The notes beneath the pieces are model-generated. The model made no database searches and was not told the origin of the DNA. It worked only from the letters and a program-made list of their open reading frames with translations. The translations under genes were made by a program, and so were the position numbers. Positions 8,481-26,348 of a DNA stretch of 64,000 bases are shown one piece after another. The stretch is from IMG/VR virus record IMGVR_UViG_3300028888_000132. The stretch is one strand, 5' to 3'. The DNA is from an uncultured virus (IMG/VR IMGVR_UViG_3300028888_000132). Taxonomy: Duplodnaviria > Heunggongvirae > Uroviricota > Caudoviricetes. How positions within the stretch are numbered: the stretch's first letter is position 1; every line of letters begins with the position of its first letter.

Positions 8481-8505
8481 ATATTCATTTTTTTTGCATT
8501 AAAAA

Positions 8506-8533
8506 ACCTCTCTATCTTCACAGACTGAGAGGC
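8506..8533 (-). terminator. Intrinsic terminator-like hairpin
   Basis: Minus strand GCCTCTCAGTCT-GTGA-AGATAGAGAGGT followed by a T run. Confidence 0.6.
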
Positions 8534-8580
8534 TTGATAAAACCCTAATAAAAAACATAATGAAATGGAACAAATTTTCG

Positions 8581-9021
8581 CTATTTCCTTGTTTGCCCAT
8601 AATAAGCCAAAAGAAGTGCGTCTGCTGTTTTAAGCGTTATTTTCTGTGTAGGGAAAAGCTGTTGAGCCATTCCTTTCAATCTATTCTTATGGTTTGTCTT
8701 CGGCTCATCTTTAATAGCCTTTAATCCAAGTGCTGATTGCCATTTGTTCGGTGTCACATCAATCCAACGTATCTTATGAGCAGTAAGCATACCTCTCAAA
8801 AATCCGTAGCCCATGCCAAACTTGAAGGTGGACGCAACACCTTGTCCGCTCATAGAATGTACTTGCTCCAAATATGCACAGTCTGCATCTTCGTTTCTTA
8901 TAAAGAACTCGTTAATGTCGTGGTCTGTATAGGGCATAGGAATACATTCTACAACTTTACCTTCGTCGTTCAACACGGCAAAACCTCCATTAACGCCTGG
9001 GTCTATCCCTATGATTTTCAT
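8581..9021 (-). CDS. RuvC-like Holliday junction resolvase
   Basis: IIGIDPG, YLEQV, FKFGMGYG, ADALLLA. Confidence 0.85.
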   Translation of the reverse strand: MKIIGIDPGVNGGFAVLNDEGKVVECIPMPYTDHDINEFFIRNEDADCAYLEQVHSMSGQGVASTFKFGMGYGFLRGMLTAHKIRWIDVTPNKWQSALGLKAIKDEPKTNHKNRLKGMAQQLFPTQKITLKTADALLLAYYGQTRK

Positions 9022-10401: not shown

Positions 10402-11202
10402 CTATTGTTTCTTTTCTTCACCAAACAAATCTTCTTTTGGGTTTACTTCTTCGTCGGTAGGCGTTACTGTCGCAGTTGTGGCGTTGTCAACATATTCTAC
10501 TTCTGCTGCATCTATTTCGTCGAAACTCTCAATCATCGTGAAATCGTTCTTGATAACCCCTTGGTCAAGTCTGATTGCTCGTTGCATTTCGATTGACAAT
10601 ATTCCAAATTTCGACAATAGAAGTTTTGTAACTGTTTTCAGACACATTGCGTTAGGGTCTGTGTTCCAAACTCCCGAAGAGAATGACTTGCTGTATTTTC
10701 TTCCATGTGCAAGTGCTTCATCTTTTGTCATGTAAAAATACTTTTCGAAGCCGCCGATTGTGCGGAAGTAAGCCATATAGCCTATCACCTCATCGCTCTC
10801 ACGCTTGCTTGCATCGAACTCATACTCGTCACGGAATGGGTCATACTTTACAAGTTCTCCCTTATGCACAATGGCGTTTGTGATTCTTTCATACTGACCG
10901 CTTCGGATAGCTAACTGAATCAGTCCCCGTGTCATAATTTGAAACTGAGCGGAACGCCCATAAGGTACAATCGCCGCAAAACCCAAATTAGGATTTATCG
11001 GTAAATCGAGTGAGGCAGCTACCATAGCACTTGAATAGACTGTTGAAGGTTCTGCCTTTTGCAGTAGGCTGTTGTTGTTTACAACAGAAAGCACACTTGT
11101 AATGAATCCTTGCGCCTTTTGTCCGAGCATTGCCTTTAAGTTCTTAACGCAAGTCTCGTTGTTGAAATACCCTTGAAGGGTTGCGATGTTAGAATTTGCC
11201 AT
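10402..11202 (-). CDS. recT: RecT family single-strand annealing protein
   Basis: AASLDLPINPNLGFAAIVPY..QFQIMTRGLIQLAIRSG..MCLKTV. Confidence 0.92.
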   Translation of the reverse strand: MANSNIATLQGYFNNETCVKNLKAMLGQKAQGFITSVLSVVNNNSLLQKAEPSTVYSSAMVAASLDLPINPNLGFAAIVPYGRSAQFQIMTRGLIQLAIRSGQYERITNAIVHKGELVKYDPFRDEYEFDASKRESDEVIGYMAYFRTIGGFEKYFYMTKDEALAHGRKYSKSFSSGVWNTDPNAMCLKTVTKLLLSKFGILSIEMQRAIRLDQGVIKNDFTMIESFDEIDAAEVEYVDNATTATVTPTDEEVNPKEDLFGEEKKQ

Positions 11203-13217: not shown

Positions 13218-13235
13218 ATTATACCTTATTTATTA

Positions 13236-13463
13236 TTATCTGTTAAGTACTTTCTCATCGCCTTCTTTCATGGCGTGGATAAGGATAATGTTCTTAGAGA
13301 AGAATCGCTGTGTCTCATAGTCAACGACCCCTTCGGGCATACCTACGTTTTTCAATCTTGCTATTAACGAAGTCACAGAGTACATAGAAGGCGTGTCGTC
13401 ACAAAGGAACGGTTCTATTGTACCCGCCTTGATTGCTCTGATGTCGTCAGTCGATACTTTCAT
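13236..13463 (-). CDS. First gene of the leftward lytic operon (cro position), function unknown
   Basis: 75-aa ORF divergent from the repressor. Confidence 0.6.
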   Translation of the reverse strand: MKVSTDDIRAIKAGTIEPFLCDDTPSMYSVTSLIARLKNVGMPEGVVDYETQRFFSKNIILIHAMKEGDEKVLNR

Positions 13464-13661: not shown

Positions 13662-13695
13662 ATTATTGTTTATAATGATTCTAAACAATAAAATT

Positions 13696-14334
13696 ATGGA
13701 AGTAACTATAAAAGAGAGACTTGACTACTTTCTTGCAAAAATGAAAATTAGTCAAAGAAAGTTTGAGAACGCTTGTGGGTTATCAAACGGCTACATGAAT
13801 AATCTGAAAAAGTCGCCAAGCGGTGCTGTAATGCAGAAGATACTCAGCGCATATCCATACCTAAATCAAGATTGGCTGCTGAAAGGCGAAGGAAATATGT
13901 TTATTTCGAGGGATGAAATAAAAGAAGATGTGAAGGCGGAAGAAGGAATACCACTTATTCCGACAAATGCCATAGGAGGATATATTAGCGGAGTTAGTGA
14001 CCCAATAAAGGATTATGACTGCGAGAAGTACATTATACCTTTGTTTAGAGGGGCTGACTTTCTGATAAGGGTTGACGGTGATTCTATGCAGCCAAAGTAT
14101 ATGTCGGGTGATATTGTAGCGTGCAAGAGGATTGAAAACCCTACATTCTTTCAATGGGGCAGAATTTATGTCATAGATTCCAAGCAAGGTGCGCTGATAA
14201 AAAGAATAGAGCCTTCCGACGAAGAGGGTTATATATGCCTCTTTTCTGAAAACGAAAAATACAAGCCGTTTAAGTTACACGCAGACGACATAAATGGGAT
14301 TGCGATAGTAAAGGGAGTAATAAGGGTTGAATGA
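13696..14334 (+). CDS. cI: CI-like repressor (HTH plus S24 peptidase)
   Basis: N-terminal HTH, VDGDSMQP and LIKR catalytic Ser/Lys motifs. Confidence 0.9.
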   Translation: MEVTIKERLDYFLAKMKISQRKFENACGLSNGYMNNLKKSPSGAVMQKILSAYPYLNQDWLLKGEGNMFISRDEIKEDVKAEEGIPLIPTNAIGGYISGVSDPIKDYDCEKYIIPLFRGADFLIRVDGDSMQPKYMSGDIVACKRIENPTFFQWGRIYVIDSKQGALIKRIEPSDEEGYICLFSENEKYKPFKLHADDINGIAIVKGVIRVE

Positions 14335-18920: not shown

Positions 18921-19454
18921 CTATTTATTTGCGACCATATCAACAGCACCGAAGTACGATATAGTTTTGTTGTACAATTCTTTAAAATCTTCGTCAACAT
19001 ATTCCCCACCACATTTTTCAAACCATTGCTTAGAGGTACAGAACTTCTTATATTTGCCGCCTTCTTCGCTACCCAACATATAAGCGTATTCTATACAGCT
19101 AACTTTTCCGTATTTGTCTGTTGTAATGCGTACGAATATACCGCCGTTATTATTGTCTGCTTTTTTTATCATGTCACCAACTAATTGTGGTTTCGTGAAA
19201 TCCAAAGAATTTAAAGCGTCTATTTCATATTCGCTTGTAATGTCTAAACAGCCTTGCGGCTTTAAGTTTTCCGCAAACTTACCGTCATAACCGCTCGTAG
19301 ACAAAGTGCCGTTTAATATAGACACTAATTGTGAAGGCAAAATACGCCCAACTCCCCATTGATGATAAAACACCCTTGTGTTTATTTTTTCGTTGCTTGC
19401 AGCCCATTTACAGTTGTTTACGTGCTGCAAAATAATTGCTGTTCTCTGTCCCAT
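18921..19454 (-). CDS. Hypothetical protein (MGQR..FYHQWG)
   Basis: 177 aa; AGTACTAAC in leader. Confidence 0.7.
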   Translation of the reverse strand: MGQRTAIILQHVNNCKWAASNEKINTRVFYHQWGVGRILPSQLVSILNGTLSTSGYDGKFAENLKPQGCLDITSEYEIDALNSLDFTKPQLVGDMIKKADNNNGGIFVRITTDKYGKVSCIEYAYMLGSEEGGKYKKFCTSKQWFEKCGGEYVDEDFKELYNKTISYFGAVDMVANK

Positions 19455-19627
19455 GATAAAATCTCCTATTTTTTAAAGTTAGTACTGTTTCGTTTTTCTT
19501 TATTTATAAGAATCTCTTTTGCTTGTAATGTATATGTAAGAAATTAAAACTATAAATAGAAAATACCAAAATGGCAAATTCAAAAAACCATAAAGTGCAA
19601 AGAATAAAAACCATAAAAATACACCAA

Positions 19628-19858
19628 TCATTTTATGCCTCCTTTCTCAAAATTTGAACGTACATAATAAGAACACTTGATGTAAGAAATATTTTTGTTG
19701 AAAATATCAACGCCATTTTTCTGAAAATGTGACGTTATGTTATTACAGTAAGATGTAGCTATTTTATACGCTTTTCTAATATGGCGGCTTTTGCCATAAA
19801 GCATTTGGCATTTTGTTAATTGTGTCATAACGTCGTTAAATGATTTGTCTTTTTCCAT
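19628..19858 (-). CDS. Hypothetical protein
   Basis: 76 aa in array. Confidence 0.55.
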   Translation of the reverse strand: MEKDKSFNDVMTQLTKCQMLYGKSRHIRKAYKIATSYCNNITSHFQKNGVDIFNKNISYIKCSYYVRSNFEKGGIK

Positions 19859-19882
19859 AATCGAAATTATTAAAATTGTTAT

Positions 19883-20191
19883 TTACTCATTTATTTCGTA
19901 TTCGTAATCTTCCGCAATGTTACCCGCAGCCAACCATACAAAAAATACTTCTTTTTCGTGACGATTTTTTTCGTCAAATTCGCATCCATATTCCAAAAGA
20001 GCGTCTTCCAACATATTGTCTGTTAGTTTTGACAACTGATTTTTGATATAGTCAGTTTCCATAATATTTTCTACATCGTAGAGGCAATCTCCCTGATGAT
20101 AGCAATATTTTGCATCTTCCAAAGTCATTTCAAAGTCGAAATTCTTTTTGTAATTGTCATAATCAAAAGTTGTTGTTATCATTGTTTCCAT
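19883..20191 (-). CDS. Acidic hypothetical protein
   Basis: 102 aa, D/E-rich. Confidence 0.7.
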   Translation of the reverse strand: METMITTTFDYDNYKKNFDFEMTLEDAKYCYHQGDCLYDVENIMETDYIKNQLSKLTDNMLEDALLEYGCEFDEKNRHEKEVFFVWLAAGNIAEDYEYEINE

Positions 20192-20206
20192 AATCGTAAA
20201 GTTTAT

Positions 20207-20389
20207 TTATTCATCATATTCGTTAATATCTGTTATTTCATAACCAACATAAGAACCTTTGGTGTAATAGTAATGCGGATAGTCTTGCACCTTATCTTCT
20301 GCAACCTTTTTAGCCTCTTCAATGTTTTTTGCTTCTACCCAAATTGTCTTTGACATGGTAAAGTCAATTTCTACTGCAAATGTTTTCAT
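20207..20389 (-). CDS. Small hypothetical protein
   Basis: VEAKNIEEAKKVAE motif. Confidence 0.65.
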   Translation of the reverse strand: MKTFAVEIDFTMSKTIWVEAKNIEEAKKVAEDKVQDYPHYYYTKGSYVGYEITDINEYDE

Positions 20390-20408
20390 AATCGTAATTT
20401 TTAATTTG

Positions 20409-20591
20409 TTAAATAATGCTGTTTTCTTTAAATTCCCTTATAAGACCGTAACGCCTTGCCAATTTTTCAAAATGGTTTCCCCAAAATGCTATTTCGCTCC
20501 ATGAGTAATTCTGAGAAACAGAATTATACTGCCATTCGATAGCCTCGTCTCTCGCTTCGGCTTTCTTCTGTTGATAAGTCTTTTTTGCCAT
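20409..20591 (-). CDS. Small hypothetical protein
   Basis: KAEARDEAIEWQ..YGLIREFKEN. Confidence 0.7.
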   Translation of the reverse strand: MAKKTYQQKKAEARDEAIEWQYNSVSQNYSWSEIAFWGNHFEKLARRYGLIREFKENSII

Positions 20592-20612
20592 AGTTGTAAA
20601 TTTAAATAGTTA

Positions 20613-20855
20613 TTAATGTTCGCTTACTTTCAGCCAATTTAAAACAGTGTCGCTCGTGTCGCCAAAACGAACGCCGTCAGCGTGAAAGGTGACTTCTTGC
20701 ACTTCATTTGGGTTAATAGTGAAATTGCGACAGCTCATGCAATTTAACGTGTCTTTTTCTGCAAATTCCTTTGCTTCGTCGTAACTCATCCGAGCAAGTG
20801 TTGAAACGTCGTATTTGTTCGGATTAAGGCTAATTGATAAGATTCTTACTTTCAT
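20613..20855 (-). CDS. Hypothetical protein
   Basis: 80 aa in array. Confidence 0.6.
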   Translation of the reverse strand: MKVRILSISLNPNKYDVSTLARMSYDEAKEFAEKDTLNCMSCRNFTINPNEVQEVTFHADGVRFGDTSDTVLNWLKVSEH

Positions 20856-20964
20856 AATATACGTTTTTAGTTGTTCATTACTTAAATTATACCCTTATGG
20901 CTTCTTGTAGTCCGTTCTAAGGGCTTAAATTGCAAAAGATGATAAATTACACATGGCAGAAATT

Positions 20965-21162
20965 TTAATAGAAATAAAGCCAAGAATTTGTAAAATTGTC
21001 TTCCCCATTATTTACCATATTCGAAAAATTTTCTACGTCCATAACCATTGCCGTTTCGTCAAGCATTTCTGATTGTACAGCAAGTTCTAAACGTTCTTCT
21101 GCGCTCATTGCGTCTAATTCGACCCTTTCGAAGTTGTCAACATCAAATAAAATTGCTTTCAT
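20965..21162 (-). CDS. Small acidic hypothetical protein
   Basis: 65 aa in array. Confidence 0.6.
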   Translation of the reverse strand: MKAILFDVDNFERVELDAMSAEERLELAVQSEMLDETAMVMDVENFSNMVNNGEDNFTNSWLYFY

Positions 21163-21219
21163 GTTACAAAAAATTTAGTTATTGTTATTAGTTTCCTATC
21201 CTATTAATTGCAAATCAAC

Positions 21220-21468
21220 TTAGATTTCAAATACTCTGATTTCGTTCGTTGTGTGTTCGTTTATAAATTCGCCTTTTAAATATGCGCAAAAATTGTCCTT
21301 TTTGTTTGTTTCAACAAAATAATGCCTTTCTTTTGAAATCTCCTTTTCTTCCTTCACAATATCGTTAAAAAATTTCTGCGCTTCTTTTTCGTTCGTAAAA
21401 CATTCTATTCTTACGCCGAAATCTTCTGAATTGCTTACAATGTGCTGAACAAATGAATAAACCTTCAT
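21220..21468 (-). CDS. Hypothetical protein
   Basis: 82 aa in array. Confidence 0.6.
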   Translation of the reverse strand: MKVYSFVQHIVSNSEDFGVRIECFTNEKEAQKFFNDIVKEEKEISKERHYFVETNKKDNFCAYLKGEFINEHTTNEIRVFEI

Positions 21469-21531
21469 TTTTAAACCTCCTATCTTTAATTACAAAAAAC
21501 TTTCTTTAATATCATCAAATTACAAAGATGT

Positions 21532-21879
21532 TTAAATTTCAAATATCCCTATCGCTTTGGCAATTTCTAAAACCTTGTTTTTTGATGATAACGCCGAAGG
21601 GATAAAAGTGCCGTTAGCAGACCTATAAAAACATTTTTTTGTTTCTACCCAATTATATGCGCCTTCACTTTTTGCAAAACCTATTGCGCCGTATTTCACA
21701 CGCCAATATTTTATTTTACTGCTTATATTACCGTCCATATAAAACGCCCTTAAATAACGCGTGCCGCTTTTGTCGATAAGCAATAAATGAGAGCGACTAA
21801 TGAGACTTTTTTTATAAAGTTCTTTCTTTTCTGATAATAAACGGTTTTGCGTCTCTTGTGGTAATTCTTCGAATTTCAT
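21532..21879 (-). CDS. Hypothetical protein
   Basis: MKFEELPQETQ.. 115 aa. Confidence 0.65.
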   Translation of the reverse strand: MKFEELPQETQNRLLSEKKELYKKSLISRSHLLLIDKSGTRYLRAFYMDGNISSKIKYWRVKYGAIGFAKSEGAYNWVETKKCFYRSANGTFIPSALSSKNKVLEIAKAIGIFEI

Positions 21880-21984
21880 AATATCAATTTTTTAGTTGTT
21901 AATAATGTTTCTTAATTTGTGGGTGCTGCTGGCATTTCTCGAAAACAGCATAACCGATTTTAACGGATGCACCCTAATAAAGTA

Positions 21985-22215
21985 CTAACTTAAAACAGCA
22001 AATAATTTGCCTCTTCCCATATCAATAATAACTTGGTCTTTTATAATTCCGTTGGCGTTGATAACATCGTAACATTTGCCAAGTTTAGAAAAATAGATTT
22101 CGCTTTCCCTAAGTTCGCAAATTTTCATATATTTACTTAAAAGGTGTTTTCTTAGCTCTTCTATATTTGGCGCACTTATCAATAAGCGCAAATCTTTCTT
22201 TGTAATTGTTCTCAT
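21985..22215 (-). CDS. Hypothetical protein
   Basis: 76 aa in array. Confidence 0.55.
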   Translation of the reverse strand: MRTITKKDLRLLISAPNIEELRKHLLSKYMKICELRESEIYFSKLGKCYDVINANGIIKDQVIIDMGRGKLFAVLS

Positions 22216-22457
22216 AGTCCTATTAAATCATTTAAAGTTATGTTATTAAATTCCTTCATTATTTCACACATTGCCAAATATCCGAAGCCCTCGCAGTATT
22301 TGAAAATTTTGCCCCTTCCGCTTTCATTCGGCATTATGTGCAAATACGGTTTTTCGTTCTTATATACCCATAAATGAGAAGTAAAAAAGCCCTTTTCTTT
22401 CGTCATTCTATAATTTATATTTTCGCCGCTCTTCGTGCGCTTCGTTATCGTTTCCAT
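22212..22457 (-). CDS. Hypothetical protein
   Basis: 81 aa in array. Confidence 0.55.
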   Translation of the reverse strand: METITKRTKSGENINYRMTKEKGFFTSHLWVYKNEKPYLHIMPNESGRGKIFKYCEGFGYLAMCEIMKEFNNITLNDLIGL

Positions 22458-22474
22458 AGTACACAGTTTTTTAT

Positions 22475-22720
22475 TTAATCATCTTCAAAGAATGAGGCAA
22501 AAAGCGATAATGTATATTTGTGTGCGTCTGTAATCAGTACGGCATAACGTATTTGTGCGCCTTTTTCAATGTTGAAATAGTCCTTATTCGTTAGCTCTCT
22601 GCCGCCTAAACTCAAAACGTCTTTTATGCCGTCTTGCAGTGCGTTTTCTGCTGATTTCCACGTCTTAAAATATCTATTGTATTTTTTGCCGTCAACGTCT
22701 TTGCAGTAAGTTATAAACAT
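22475..22720 (-). CDS. Hypothetical protein
   Basis: ATG start MFITYCK; AGTACTAAC in leader. Confidence 0.6.
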   Translation of the reverse strand: MFITYCKDVDGKKYNRYFKTWKSAENALQDGIKDVLSLGGRELTNKDYFNIEKGAQIRYAVLITDAHKYTLSLFASFFEDD

Positions 22721-22794
22721 AATCAATTATATTTTTGTTGGTTAGTACTGTTTAATAATGCCCGTTTTGCCGATAGCGCAGCAATCAATTTTAT

Positions 22795-23634
22795 TTACTC
22801 ATCACGCCAATACGTCCAAACGTTTAATTTTGAAAGCCCATACCTTTTCAAATAGGCTTGCAAACGCTTTTCGAATTTGTTGCGTTCATGCTTTAAACCT
22901 TCTAAAATTGTCGTTCTGTCTTCGTCGCTCATCTTCTCAACTTCTCCGTATCTCTGCGGATTGTCTTGTAATTCGCCCCAATGTACTGCGACAAACTCAA
23001 ATAAATTTAACGGCTCTTTTTGGCTTAAATAATGCAACCTTTTCAGATACCACGAACACCCAATAAATTTATAATTACTGCCTTCTCCGCAATTAGTTTG
23101 CAATGCTTCTATTTTTTCGTCGTAGCCTTCCAAATTGGCGTTTAAAAAATGTTGTTCGTTAGTTCTCGCAAAATGTGCCATTCTTTCGGCGTTGTCGTTG
23201 CTTTCGTTGTCAAATGGGCTACATGAATAACCGAAACAAAAGCGCGTTTCTATTCTTGGCTTTTCGAAGACTACCAAACCGCCATTTGAAAGACGAACAG
23301 CAGAAGAAAAAATACTTTTTTCATATTCTATCATTTTATCATCGCCTCCCCACGCCTTCCGCATTTCGTCCAAATACTCGTTTAAATATTCCTTATCGTT
23401 TCTTTTTGTCTCTGCCTTTGCGATAGTGGGAACGGATGCGGCAACAGTCCCGCCGCCATTTATGAACGTTTCGACGGCTTGACGTGCCTTTATTGGGAAA
23501 ACCCAACCAACGCCGCACGAAAGATATTTATTAAACTTTCCGCCCATGTTCTTTAATTCGTCCTTTACTTGCTTAGTGTCGCCGATAACGGCGAAAGCCT
23601 TTGCCGAATAGTCAATAATTTGTAAAGTTGCCAT
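22795..23634 (-). CDS. Hypothetical protein with an N-terminal DYSxKAxA..GGKFN..GWVF domain
   Basis: 279 aa; domain recalled from Bacteroidota mobile-element proteins; AGTACTAAC in leader. Confidence 0.7.
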   Translation of the reverse strand: MATLQIIDYSAKAFAVIGDTKQVKDELKNMGGKFNKYLSCGVGWVFPIKARQAVETFINGGGTVAASVPTIAKAETKRNDKEYLNEYLDEMRKAWGGDDKMIEYEKSIFSSAVRLSNGGLVVFEKPRIETRFCFGYSCSPFDNESNDNAERMAHFARTNEQHFLNANLEGYDEKIEALQTNCGEGSNYKFIGCSWYLKRLHYLSQKEPLNLFEFVAVHWGELQDNPQRYGEVEKMSDEDRTTILEGLKHERNKFEKRLQAYLKRYGLSKLNVWTYWRDE

Positions 23635-23677
23635 AAGTCAAAATATTTTAAGGTTAGTACTTTTCTTTTATCTGTTG

Positions 23678-23926
23678 TTATGCCTCATTTAATTCTATGT
23701 TGAAAAATTCGGCTATTTCTTCCACGCTATCGTTATAAAATTGCTCTTCGATTGCGTCCAAATCTTCGCCGCTCGTCTGCTCGTCAATGGCTTTTAAAGT
23801 CTCATCTTCTCCGATTTCAGAACGTTCTAAAAGTTCGTTTAATGTGCTAAGAGATTGCGCCCTAAAAAAGAACCTACTCAAAGAACTGTTATAATAAATT
23901 TCTTCGATTGTTATATTTGCTTTCAT
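23678..23926 (-). CDS. Highly acidic small protein
   Basis: 82 aa, E/D-rich C-terminal half. Confidence 0.65.
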   Translation of the reverse strand: MKANITIEEIYYNSSLSRFFFRAQSLSTLNELLERSEIGEDETLKAIDEQTSGEDLDAIEEQFYNDSVEEIAEFFNIELNEA

Positions 23927-24047
23927 AATTCTAATTTTTTAAAGTTAAATAAATAAGTCGCTTTTGTCCTCCGTTAGTCTGTTTCTTGTCTCTTTTGGCA
24001 GGGCTGAAATTACAGCCCATACCAAGAATATTATAAAAGTTTCCATA

Positions 24048-24476
24048 TTAAATGTATTTATAAGGGTTTGCGCCTAAAATTTCGGCTAATTGGATAATAC
24101 GAACGCTTAAAACGTGCCAATAATTAGACACTAATTTTTCAGCCCTTTTGTCGTTCTCGCCTTTGAGAAGTCCCCAAGAAATTAATAGTTTTTCGATGTC
24201 ATAATTTGAGTATTTCAACGAAATAACAGAAGGTAAACCACGCAACCAATCCGCCAACCTATCCGCCAAATTTGGGAAAACGTGTTTATTATATGCGCTA
24301 TTTCCGTCGCTGTCGAAACGATTAAAAAAATACTCGATTATTTCCCTATCGTTTGCAAACGTTTTGCCCTCATCCGTTGCGGCAGTACTGTATTTAATGC
24401 CGTCTAAAATATAAATAAATTGGTTGCCGTTGCGTCCGTTCTTACGGCTTTCTGATAAGTTTAAATTTGTTTTCAT
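24048..24476 (-). CDS. Hypothetical protein (DWLRGLPS motif)
   Basis: 142 aa; AGTACTAAC in leader. Confidence 0.7.
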   Translation of the reverse strand: MKTNLNLSESRKNGRNGNQFIYILDGIKYSTAATDEGKTFANDREIIEYFFNRFDSDGNSAYNKHVFPNLADRLADWLRGLPSVISLKYSNYDIEKLLISWGLLKGENDKRAEKLVSNYWHVLSVRIIQLAEILGANPYKYI

Positions 24477-24522
24477 AACTCTAATTTTTTGTTGTTAGTA
24501 CTTTTTTATCTATCTTTGCGCC

Positions 24523-24597
24523 AACCCTATATTTTTGGGGTTAGTACTTTTTTAAAGTGGGGGGCGGTCTGCGAGAGATAACCCCCCACTATTTGTT
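24523..24597 (+). ncRNA. Candidate antisense small RNA (about 70 nt)
   Basis: Promoter TTTG 24488 and TATCTTTG 24511; no ORF; 5' hairpin, GTTAGTACTTTT, terminator stem AGTGGGGGG/CCCCCCACT. Confidence 0.5.
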
Positions 24598-24598
24598 A

Positions 24599-25003
24599 TT
24601 ATCTTTCGAAATCGTGCGAAATTGTAACGGCGAAACCCTTTAAATTATTCGACAACGACACACGCACGTTATAACCTTCGAAATCTTTAAATAGTTGCGG
24701 CGTTAAATCGTCCATTTCTACCAACATAGAGAAAGAGAAAAAGCCCTTTTTCTTATCGTTTGTTGTATATGTCTTCTTAATGTCGGAAACCGCAATTAAT
24801 TCGTCGTTTTCGTATCTCTTGCAATAGTCAAACCAAACACGGCGATAATAAACCTCTTTCGCTTTGTTAGTCGCCTCTTTCAGTTGTTCGGCGTTTAGTT
24901 CGTAGATTTCGCCGTAATCGTTCACGAACATTAAAACATCTAATAACGTGGCGGCGTCTTTAATTCTCTTTAATAGTCTACTTGTAAAATGAATTGGTAA
25001 CAT
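24599..25003 (-). CDS. Hypothetical protein, first gene of the early array
   Basis: 134 aa; promoter TATCTTTG 25060-25053 and TTTG 25084. Confidence 0.65.
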   Translation of the reverse strand: MLPIHFTSRLLKRIKDAATLLDVLMFVNDYGEIYELNAEQLKEATNKAKEVYYRRVWFDYCKRYENDELIAVSDIKKTYTTNDKKKGFFSFSMLVEMDDLTPQLFKDFEGYNVRVSLSNNLKGFAVTISHDFER

Positions 25004-25167
25004 ATCAGTATATTTTTAAAGGTTAGTACTTTTCTTTTTCTTTTATCTATTGCAAAGATAATGCTTATTTGTGAAACCTGCAAATATTTTCAGAAAAAAA
25101 TCACGAAAAAATGCGTTTTTTTTCAAAATTCACTAATTTTGTGGCTTAATCATCTAAATTTTACGCT

Positions 25168-25719
25168 ATGGACTACACAATAAACACTATTAAAGTAGCT
25201 AAACAGTACAACCTAAACGAAAGAGACGTTTTGTTTTGTCAGCTCATCGCCAACGGAGCAAACAAAGGAGAGGCATATTATGTCATTTATGAACACGGCA
25301 CAAAATCAAAGATTAAAACAATCGAGCAAGCAAACACCGCCGCAAATGAATTTCTACGGCTGAACAAGGGTGCAACCGTACTAATCCAACGACTAAAAAA
25401 TAATAAAAAACTACTCACTGACGAAGCAAAAAACCAAGTCAATGCAACAACACAAGAAGAAGAAGAAAACGACGAGAGAATAAAAAAATTTTCAGACAAG
25501 TCGTATATTATTGGGCGGTTGGCTGTTCTTAGCGACCAAGTAGGAGGTAAAGAGAGGGCGCAAATACTTATGCAAATTGCCGACCTTCAAAGAATGAAGC
25601 AAGAAGAGAACCAAGTAGAAGAAGAACGACGCAAATTTTATTTGCCGTACGTGTCCCACTGTCGCACGTGTAAAATATTAGAAGTGTTCAAAGAACTAAC
25701 CGAAGAGAAAGAAAAGTAA
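25168..25719 (+). CDS. Putative terminase small subunit
   Basis: LNERDVLFCQLIANGANKGEAY HTH typical of TerS, followed by helical oligomerisation segments. Confidence 0.55.
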   Translation: MDYTINTIKVAKQYNLNERDVLFCQLIANGANKGEAYYVIYEHGTKSKIKTIEQANTAANEFLRLNKGATVLIQRLKNNKKLLTDEAKNQVNATTQEEEENDERIKKFSDKSYIIGRLAVLSDQVGGKERAQILMQIADLQRMKQEENQVEEERRKFYLPYVSHCRTCKILEVFKELTEEKEK

Positions 25720-25764
25720 TTTAATTTTATACCTATAAAATTAAAAACAATGAGAAAGAGCGAA

Positions 25765-26030
25765 GGAAGAAGGGGCGAGGGGGTAGGGGGTAAAAACCGC
25801 CGCAACCCCTCAGAACATACCCCACCCCCAAGAAAGAAAAACAAAAGGGGGCATTCATTCTCGCTCAAAATTTTTTTCTGATTTTTTTATTTTTCTTTTT
25901 TTCTGAGGGGAGTGTTAATAAAAATTCGTTGTTGTGATTTGTTATTTTGGTTGTTTTTAGTTGTAGAGTTGTGTTGATTTTTGGTTGTAGAGTTATTGTG
26001 AGGTTGTATTTGTGTTGCTTTATTTGTGAA
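25765..26030. other. Candidate packaging and/or replication origin region
   Basis: G runs (GGGGCGAGGGGGTAGGGGG), C runs, A/T tracts, then iterated GTTGT and GTTGTAGAGTT; strand composition flips. Confidence 0.45.
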
Positions 26031-26348
26031 AAACGTCGAAATTCGATGTTTTTTGCAAAGAAAGAAGAAAAGGAGTATAAAAGAAGAAAGAAAGAAATAT
26101 ATAAAGAAAGAAAGTGTATTAAAAAACAAATGATGCAACACAACAACACATATTTTAAACACAATGAATTTTCGCATTGAATTTGCGTAAATGTCTGAAA
26201 ATTATCGTATATTTGCGATGAAAATGTATGAAATTGTGAAAAGTGCTATAATGTGTTCACACTGTGCAATTTTAGTCAAAATTGGTTTAAGTAGTTGATT
26301 TACTGCGCATAGAAAAGCAACACAAAGTTTTTTTATAATAGATTTTAT

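What the first reader, a model, noticed from the sequence alone, without database searches (positions are those of the whole stretch)
19478..25060. Candidate sRNA regulon: one antisense RNA complementary to an AGTACTAAC box in five early-gene leaders
Seen: AGTACTAAC (usually AAAAGTACTAACC) lies 18-24 nt upstream of the start codons at 19454, 22720, 23634, 24476 and 25003. In the 24477-24598 gap a consensus plus-strand promoter (TTTG-N19-TATCTTTG) drives about 70 nt with no ORF: hairpin AACCCTA/TGGGGTT, then GGTTAGTACTTTTTT (the complement of the box), then a 9-bp GC stem. Inference: a trans-acting phage sRNA that co-ordinately silences early genes, for example in lysogeny. Alternative: the AGTACT-centred box is a protein operator, since one copy lies in the sRNA promoter spacer. 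I do not recognise this as a described system.
Basis: partly seen in the sequence, partly recalled or inferred. Interest (0 to 1): 0.78.

Follow-up and report, generated by a model that had tools for sequence, protein, structure and literature searches.

The report
Phage antisense RNA matching early-gene leaders
A temperate phage of Bacteroidales gut bacteria carries a predicted 75-base RNA gene that mirrors a private "address" in front of five of its own early genes; related phages, including the common human-gut LoVEphage, keep the same design with different, matching RNA and address sequences, which points to an uncatalogued RNA off-switch, although the RNA itself has not been seen.

Summary
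Confirmed and extended. The window is a temperate, LoVEphage-like Bacteroidales phage. AGTACTAAC occurs 7 times (0.44 expected). Five copies end 17-23 nt before early-gene AUGs, and those leaders rank top 5 of 99 for pairing with the 24523-24597 unit (21-27 bp, all covering -12/-13). The same unit (opposite-strand promoter, seed, GNRA-capped terminator) was seen in 27 of 51 related-phage clusters, and in 16 of 19 rows of the window's clade. The seed differs between lineages but matches each phage's own early leaders: 4.5 versus 0.2 matches per 10 kb (own versus other seed families), 45 on the mRNA strand and 0 on the other. In the LoVEphage group, RNA and target alleles match in 44 of 49 haplotypes, including a one-base compensatory pair. 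Best reading (0.8): a trans-acting antisense RNA that damps the early operon; a lysogeny or immunity role is inferred (about 0.5). Against: no stranded transcript seen, gene conversion between direct repeats could mimic co-variation, and two close, truncated relatives have boxes without a cognate RNA. It works like P1/P7 c4 but is not a member; no Rfam match. The scan noted similar designs on other DNA earlier.

The parts
24488..24518 (+). Predicted Bacteroidetes-type promoter of the RNA (TTTG-N19-TATCTTTG). Its spacer overlaps the leader, with box, of gene 24048-24476 on the other strand.
   Evidence: TTG 18-22 nt before the -7 element in 13 of 15 clade members checked
24523..24597 (+). Predicted antisense RNA of about 75 nt. 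The start is inferred from the 4-5 nt spacing after the -7 element (PMC6847099, passage).
24523..24542 (+). 5' hairpin (7 bp). Its U-rich loop is complementary to the A-run at about -14 to -9 of the targets; its 3' arm holds the start of the anti-box.
   Evidence: fold and pairing probabilities; duplexes
24528..24555 (+). Seed or antisense stretch; 24543-24555 is predicted unpaired.
24556..24597 (+). Terminator-type hairpin with a GNRA-type apical motif (GCGA here) and a weak U tail.
   Evidence: (covariation across 19 homologues)
25053..25084 (-). Predicted promoter of the leftward early operon (TTTG-N20-TATCTTTG).
   Evidence: same position in relatives
25022..25030 (-). Box in the 5' UTR of early gene 1 (24599-25003, 134 aa); duplex -32 to -6, 26 bp.
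24494..24502 (-). Box in the leader of gene 2 (24048-24476, 142 aa, phrog_11100, unknown function); it lies in the RNA's promoter spacer, outside the RNA.
23653..23661 (-). Box in the leader of 22795-23634 (279 aa, no named family); 21 contiguous bp.
22741..22749 (-). Box in the leader of 22475-22720 (81 aa); the weakest of the five by net binding.
19478..19486 (-). Box in the leader of 18921-19454 (177 aa, unnamed, mostly viral clusters).
21981..21989 (+). Seventh copy in the opposite orientation: the early mRNA carries the anti-box over the stop codon of 21985-22215, just before a three-way hairpin. Role unexplained; no homologue found in the fetched loci.
25168..25719 (+). 183-aa gene divergent from the early operon, used as the synteny anchor (homologue of gp47 of phage BI-TP1).

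Best explanation
The 24523-24597 unit is a small non-coding RNA gene transcribed against the leftward early operon from its own promoter. Its U-rich loop and single-stranded middle pair in trans with the 5' UTR of the first early gene and with four further leaders that carry the same address. The duplexes cover the adenine-rich -12/-13 region that Bacteroidetes ribosomes use in place of a Shine-Dalgarno sequence, so translation initiation is blocked; decay or early termination of the untranslated mRNA may follow. Shown: anatomy, specificity of complementarity, conservation of the architecture, co-variation of seed and target. Inferred: transcription, repression, and the biological role. The most likely role is a delayed or prophage-state off-switch: the incoming genome expresses the operon until the RNA accumulates, and a lysogen keeps it quiet and could silence a superinfecting phage with the same address (about 0.5 for this role).
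For: The five box leaders rank 1-5 of 99 window leaders by duplex energy (-24 to -28, next -22.5 kcal/mol) and by net binding (-13 to -18, next -10.3). All five duplexes cover -13 and -12, positions that promote initiation in F. johnsoniae (PMC6847099, passages). A detector that ignores complementarity returned 31 of 51 clusters, 27 of them with this architecture. Of the 24 non-overlapping cases tested, 20 pair with their own early transcript better than all 200 shuffles, and 21 pair best with their own target or with members of the same seed family. Own-seed matches: 4.5 per 10 kb versus 0.2 for other seed families; 45 on the mRNA strand and 0 on the other, 40 of the 45 within 30 nt of an ORF start (null about 12% under a slightly stricter rule). 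LoVEphage group: 44 of 49 haplotypes have matching alleles, including a single-base pair of alleles (12 A/A, 12 A2/A2, 1 mixed). Terminator: GNRA on the plus strand in 19 of 19, covariation above all 500 shuffles. Out of sample: the model found an element 5.8 kb away in L140, whose best match is its own gene-1 leader.
Against: No stranded RNA data or RNA ends were obtained. Seed and targets are direct repeats in DNA, so recombination or gene conversion could keep them alike; L275 and L278 carry deletions in this region, that of L278 between the two repeats. G:U bias in mismatches is 33 versus 13 overall but comes from one class only (C>T 20 vs 2; A>G 13 vs G>A 11). L003 and L222 are not better than shuffles (47 and 22 of 200). 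L215 and L216, the nearest anchors, carry similar leader boxes but no cognate RNA in the 1.6-1.9 kb available; L216 has a degenerate, non-matching unit. Five of 49 LoVE haplotypes are mismatched. The window's U tail is weak, and the GNRA hairpin is a generic terminator type here (also at 8499-8535). Where one search listed several promoters I chose one, and I assigned seed families by eye.
Confidence: 0.8

Rival explanations
1. Relic or concerted direct repeats. The early region grows by duplicating gene leaders; the 'seed' is a spare leader kept similar to its siblings by phage recombination, and the promoter-like motif and hairpin are by-products (for example, a terminator that guards against convergent transcription).
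For: All copies are direct repeats; the -33 TTTG is partly the complement of the leader's CAAA; deletions in this region occur, one between the repeats (L275, L278); in the cis group the two copies flank the -7 element directly; the window encodes a 266-aa protein at 10402-11202 that I recognise from memory as RecT-like (not tested).
Against: It does not explain a -7 element directly ahead of the seed in all 27 elements (built into the detector, but absent from the other leaders), the seed ending at the stem, the plus-strand GNRA and U tract, or why the LoVEphage seed 1 matches a 5' UTR loop about 50-70 nt from the AUG. L140's element sits 5.8 kb from the gene-1 leader that it matches.
Confidence: 0.1
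2. The box is a DNA operator (or a site for an RNA-binding protein) for a phage regulator, and the copy in the unit only regulates or titrates.
For: The AGTACT core is palindromic, and one copy lies in the promoter spacer.
Against: The seeds of relatives that I inspected show no shared palindromic core (read by eye), and they are strictly strand-biased (45 vs 0); sites track AUGs, not promoters; single-base compensation and wholesale seed swaps among near-identical LoVEphages would need matching protein changes (not tested).
Confidence: 0.06
3. The RNA is real but acts mainly in cis, by transcriptional collision or by pairing with its own intergenic stretch to uncouple downstream genes; trans-pairing is incidental.
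For: The promoter is convergent with the operon, and in 5 Muribaculaceae-type clusters the unit lies wholly inside the gene-1 5' UTR.
Against: In the window's clade and in LoVEphage the best targets do not overlap the RNA and lie from a few hundred bases to 5.8 kb away.
Confidence: 0.04

Closest known systems
c4 antisense RNA of phages P1/P7 (PMC12197685, passages)
   Same: A phage-encoded, trans-acting RNA of about 77 nt that pairs near the ribosome-binding site of a phage mRNA through looped sequences; its sequence differences underlie P1/P7 heteroimmunity, as the allelic seed/target pairs might here.
   Different: c4 targets the ant mRNA; here the targets are several leaders of an early operon of unknown genes, and a link to ant is not conserved. 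c4 is processed from the same transcript as its targets (recalled), whereas this unit has its own opposite-strand promoter and terminator. No Rfam match.
CI RNA of satellite phage P4 (recalled; no call)
   Same: RNA-based immunity by pairing with the leader of an early operon at two separate seeds; the LoVEphage form also has two seeds, one aimed at a 5' UTR loop.
   Different: CI is cut from the sense transcript and causes premature termination; here the gene is on the opposite strand, and most targets overlap translation-initiation regions.
FopS/GibS trans-acting sRNAs of Bacteroides thetaiotaomicron (PMC11697453, passages)
   Same: Same phylum and promoter type; a single-stranded 5' seed followed by an intrinsic terminator; binds translation-initiation regions; a FopS-like sequence was reported in one phage.
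   Different: FopS has a conserved seed and host targets; here the seed changes between lineages and tracks the phage's own leaders. No Rfam family other than tRNA and Pistol was hit in 14 loci.
P22 sar and lambda OOP RNAs (PMC12197685, passages)
   Same: Short phage RNAs that pair with a phage mRNA and act in the lysis-lysogeny choice; sar blocks translation initiation.
   Different: Each has a single target gene (ant, cII); neither addresses several leaders by a shared motif.
LoVEphage-like temperate Bacteroidales phages (PMC8525569, passages; BI-TP1 annotation)
   Same: Same gene order: repressor, two integrases, leftward small-gene operon, gp47-like gene, primase, portal, terminase; primase 36-37% identical.
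   Different: The window is a distant relative. The LoVEphage paper's main text has 0 occurrences of 'small RNA', 'antisense', 'noncoding' or 'non-coding'.

Membership tests
P1/P7 c4 RNA | Match to the Rfam C4 models | tested here: not met
   No Rfam hit at gathering score in the window and none meaningful by E-value.
P1/P7 c4 RNA | Targets the antirepressor mRNA | tested here: not met
   The window's ant leader is only 6th by net binding (-10.3); ant was found in 2 of 10 relatives, without a seed match.
P1/P7 c4 RNA | Trans pairing through looped or unpaired sequence near a ribosome-loading site | tested here: met
   Predicted only.
P1/P7 c4 RNA | Processed from the same transcript as its targets (recalled) | tested here: not met
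   Own promoter and terminator on the opposite strand.
P1/P7 c4 RNA | Seed/target alleles define immunity groups | tested here: inconclusive
   Matched alleles in 44 of 49 LoVE haplotypes; immunity itself cannot be tested with these tools.
FopS/GibS sRNAs | Conserved R1 seed and Rfam model match | tested here: not met
   No such hit in the window or in 14 loci; seeds differ between lineages.
FopS/GibS sRNAs | Single-stranded seed followed by an intrinsic terminator, from a canonical promoter | tested here: met
FopS/GibS sRNAs | Bound by RbpB | not testable with these tools
   Needs CLIP or EMSA.
Bacterial trans-acting sRNA (general) | Discrete transcript from the predicted strand | tested here: inconclusive
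   Only unstranded contigs from one RNA-seq study cover a LoVEphage copy.
Bacterial trans-acting sRNA (general) | Seed-dependent repression rescued by compensatory changes | not testable with these tools
   Natural compensation seen; function untested.

The most novel reading that the evidence does not exclude
A whole family of temperate gut phages, LoVEphage included, uses a fast-evolving RNA 'address book' as a second, repressor-independent immunity system. The prophage RNA silences the first-expressed operon of any incoming phage whose leaders carry the same 16-25 nt address, and phages escape by changing address and seed together, so immunity groups could be read from sequence alone.
Probability: 0.3. 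Interest if true: 0.87.

Novelty: new variant of a known kind. Interest (0 to 1): 0.74.

Why it matters
The 2026 review of gut-commensal sRNAs has 0 occurrences of 'phage' or 'prophage' in its main text (PMC13750123), and a 2025 review of phage sRNAs has 0 of 'Bacteroid' (PMC12197685). So an RNA switch in a prevalent human-gut phage family would be a new layer of control. Because the seed changes from lineage to lineage, sequence and covariance searches would miss it; only the seed-to-leader relation shows it. Cultured LoVEphage-type phages and hosts exist (records) and natural alleles supply ready-made compensatory pairs, so the question of how temperate Bacteroidales phages silence early genes and exclude kin becomes directly testable. 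The design also suggests a compact, retargetable repressor for Bacteroides, which lack Shine-Dalgarno initiation.

Tried and rejected
Four RNA runs of one study cover the unit as contigs; in two of them the only contig over this part is a 597- or 569-nt piece spanning it. Contigs give no strand, ends or level and may include DNA, so this is a weak hint and is not counted as support. Single-protein scans of viral contigs found no relatives, nor did the exact promoter-plus-seed pattern or blastn of the region against GenBank phages. No whole genome is held for the window. AGTACTAAC as a shared family motif: rejected; 62 viral hits to the leader pattern, 4 with a second copy, none resembling a leader cluster, so the address is private to this phage in that collection. 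Conserved targeting of ant: not supported. Terminator hairpin as a family-specific marker: rejected; it also ends an ordinary gene. Detector hits L226 and L014 (different units; kept) and L183 and L184 (weak, dropped) were not counted as members. L001 was dropped because no early promoter was found; it shows no trans match, and L059 shows only a weak one. Target functions: no named family for the five targets except phrog_11100, of unknown function; Atlas rows for the 279-aa protein touch ArdA- and LPD29-containing clusters only under the bar. A mini-ORF reading of the minus-strand sixth copy (TTG start, 4 codons, read) was considered; it was not tested in relatives and is set aside. Literature searches returned no description of this element. 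The library lacks most subscription papers, and no supplements were read, so large published candidate-RNA lists for phages (recalled) may contain it without a function.
Full report
Context. The window encodes a CI-like repressor (13675-14334), an antirepressor, two integrases, a primase, a portal, a terminase and a capsid protein. Its primase is 36-37% identical to those of LoVEphage and BI-TP1, and BI-TP1 has the same gene order. It is therefore a temperate Bacteroidales phage. A leftward operon of small genes runs from a consensus promoter at 25053-25084 to about 17500.

Observation. AGTACTAAC occurs 7 times against 0.44 expected. The plus-strand promoter, 5' hairpin and GC stem are as described. 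Rfam has no match at gathering score in the window, nothing credible by E-value, and only tRNAs and Pistol ribozymes in 14 related loci.

Specificity inside the window. Among 99 ORF leaders, the five box leaders are the top five by duplex energy and by net binding. A scan of both strands in 40-nt windows gave four of them as the best non-self sites; the fifth fell to eleventh. The duplexes are 21-27 bp, extend through G:U pairs and the hairpin loop, and all cover -13 and -12. Adenines there promote initiation in F. johnsoniae, whose phylum lacks Shine-Dalgarno sites (PMC6847099, abstract and passages). Twelve of the 17 early leaders called in that scan have no box, so the regulon is a subset of the operon.

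Comparative test. Using the divergent 183-aa gene as anchor, 197 loci were found, and those with at least 900 bases upstream were reduced to 51 clusters. A detector for a plus-strand TAnnTTTG followed by a GC hairpin and a T-rich tail, which ignores complementarity, returned 31 clusters; I judged 27 of them to share the architecture. Of 24 non-overlapping cases (22 family members plus two other units), 20 pair with the first 80 nt of their own early transcript better than all 200 shuffles; L226 scored 1, L222 22, L003 47 and L014 136 of 200. The own target ranked first in 14, and first or behind same-family members only in 21. Across 22 representatives, seed matches number 45 on the mRNA strand and 0 on the other, and 40 lie within 30 nt of an ORF start. 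Density is 4.5 per 10 kb for own seeds and 0.2 for other seed families. In the starred 19-row clade that holds the window, 16 rows have a cognate unit; the three without (L005, L215, L216) have under 1.9 kb upstream. One of the 16, L140, was found afterwards by a covariance model, 5.8 kb from the anchor; its best match is its own gene-1 leader, at a score (12.5) just under the threshold used. Promoter choice among candidates and the seed-family labels were mine.

LoVEphage group. Here the RNA has two seeds: one matches a stretch about 20-45 nt after the early promoter, in the predicted loop of a long 5' UTR hairpin (clearest for alleles A, A2 and A3), and the other matches the translation-initiation regions of two downstream genes. 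Among 49 distinct haplotypes, 44 carry matching RNA and UTR alleles across six classes. Two classes differ by one base on each side (12 and 12 matched, 1 mixed), while classes B, C and D are largely or wholly different sequences. Five haplotypes are mismatched. The two sites are only about 0.4-1 kb apart, so linkage and gene conversion contribute to this pattern.

Strand. The terminator hairpin has G and A at the ends of a four-base apical motif in 19 of 19 aligned copies, 84% of cells paired and covariation above all 500 shuffles (the structure was mine and the sequences are related, so this is not a probability). One stem position is U-G in 10 of the 19 copies, which pairs only on the plus strand. 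The same hairpin type ends an ordinary gene at 8499-8535 in its direction of transcription. Mismatches between seed and target favour G:U-compatible changes 33 to 13, and 11 phages to 1, but only the C>T class carries the signal. No stranded reads were available; the unstranded contigs are not counted.

Mechanism. Shown: a conserved promoter-seed-terminator unit opposite the early operon, whose seed tracks the phage's own leaders. Inferred: it is transcribed; it pairs first through its loop and unpaired stretch; it blocks ribosome loading at gene 1 and at selected downstream genes; in LoVEphage it may also act on the nascent leader. Inferred more weakly: it sets a time limit on early expression after infection, keeps the operon silent in the prophage, and may exclude phages with the same address. 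The targets have no known function.

Rivals. Concerted direct repeats (0.10) are the main rival, since a deletion between the repeats exists in L278 and another removes the unit in L275, and L215 and L216 have similar boxes without a cognate RNA in the sequence available. An operator (0.06) and cis-only interference (0.04) fit less well, for the reasons given in those fields.

Comparison. It works like c4 of P1/P7, described as a trans-acting 77-nt RNA that blocks ant translation and underlies heteroimmunity (PMC12197685, passages), and like P4 CI RNA (recalled). It fails c4 membership on model match, target and biogenesis. It shares its layout, but not its seed or targets, with FopS (PMC11697453, passages). 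Searches found no description of it; the LoVEphage paper's main text does not mention such an RNA (PMC8525569, term counts and passages). Other listed papers were seen only as search listings, and no supplements were read. Earlier notes of this scan describe similar designs in other phages, none with look-alike sequence to the window or to L248; they were seen after the comparative tests and are not counted as evidence, though they gave the lead to PMC12197685.

Verdict. A real and well-supported candidate regulatory RNA family, a new variant of a known kind, with transcription and function still to be shown. Interest 0.74.

Noticed in passing
window 25090, 16644, 13641 (minus strand): AAAATATTTGCA occurs only three times, each over the -33 element of a leftward promoter (early operon, 16614 and 13611). 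It may be a repressor operator or an extended promoter element.
   Followed up: partly
window 21920-21990 (minus strand): An anti-box over a stop codon is followed by a three-way hairpin; it pairs with the five leaders at -11 to -17 kcal/mol and could be a second, mRNA-derived antisense piece. No homologue in the fetched loci and no Rfam match.
   Followed up: partly
window 22757-22785 (minus strand): A short GC-rich intergenic motif just upstream of the 22720 leader recurs in L075 (twice), L059 and L014/L154; no Rfam match.
   Followed up: partly
window 13218-13262 (minus strand): The antirepressor leader has a partial box and is the sixth-best partner by net binding; not conserved in the two relatives with ant.
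   Followed up: yes
L221 796-871 and L060 1663-1736 (minus strand): Pistol ribozymes lie inside the early operons of two relatives that also carry the antisense unit.
   Followed up: no
L226 6543-6636, L014 3576-3663, L075 about 8785-8880: A different promoter-to-terminator unit lies opposite the gene-1 5' UTR in relatives that lack the main element; possibly a replacement cis-antisense RNA.
   Followed up: partly
L003 7900-7999 and L222 6229-6330: The RNA's 5' hairpin contains a second -7 element on the opposite strand, giving overlapping convergent promoters.
   Followed up: no
L063/L147, L257, L277, L243: LoVEphage haplotypes with mismatched RNA and UTR alleles: natural candidates for RNA-insensitive recombinants, or assembly chimeras.
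   Followed up: no
L033 upstream of 7954: What looks like a mobile insert separates the early promoter from the rest of the operon in this LoVEphage record.
   Followed up: no
window 25720-26340: A long stretch without a clear gene, with G-runs, C-runs and low-complexity tracts, lies between the anchor gene and the primase; BI-TP1 has a similar gap. It may be an origin or packaging site.
   Followed up: no
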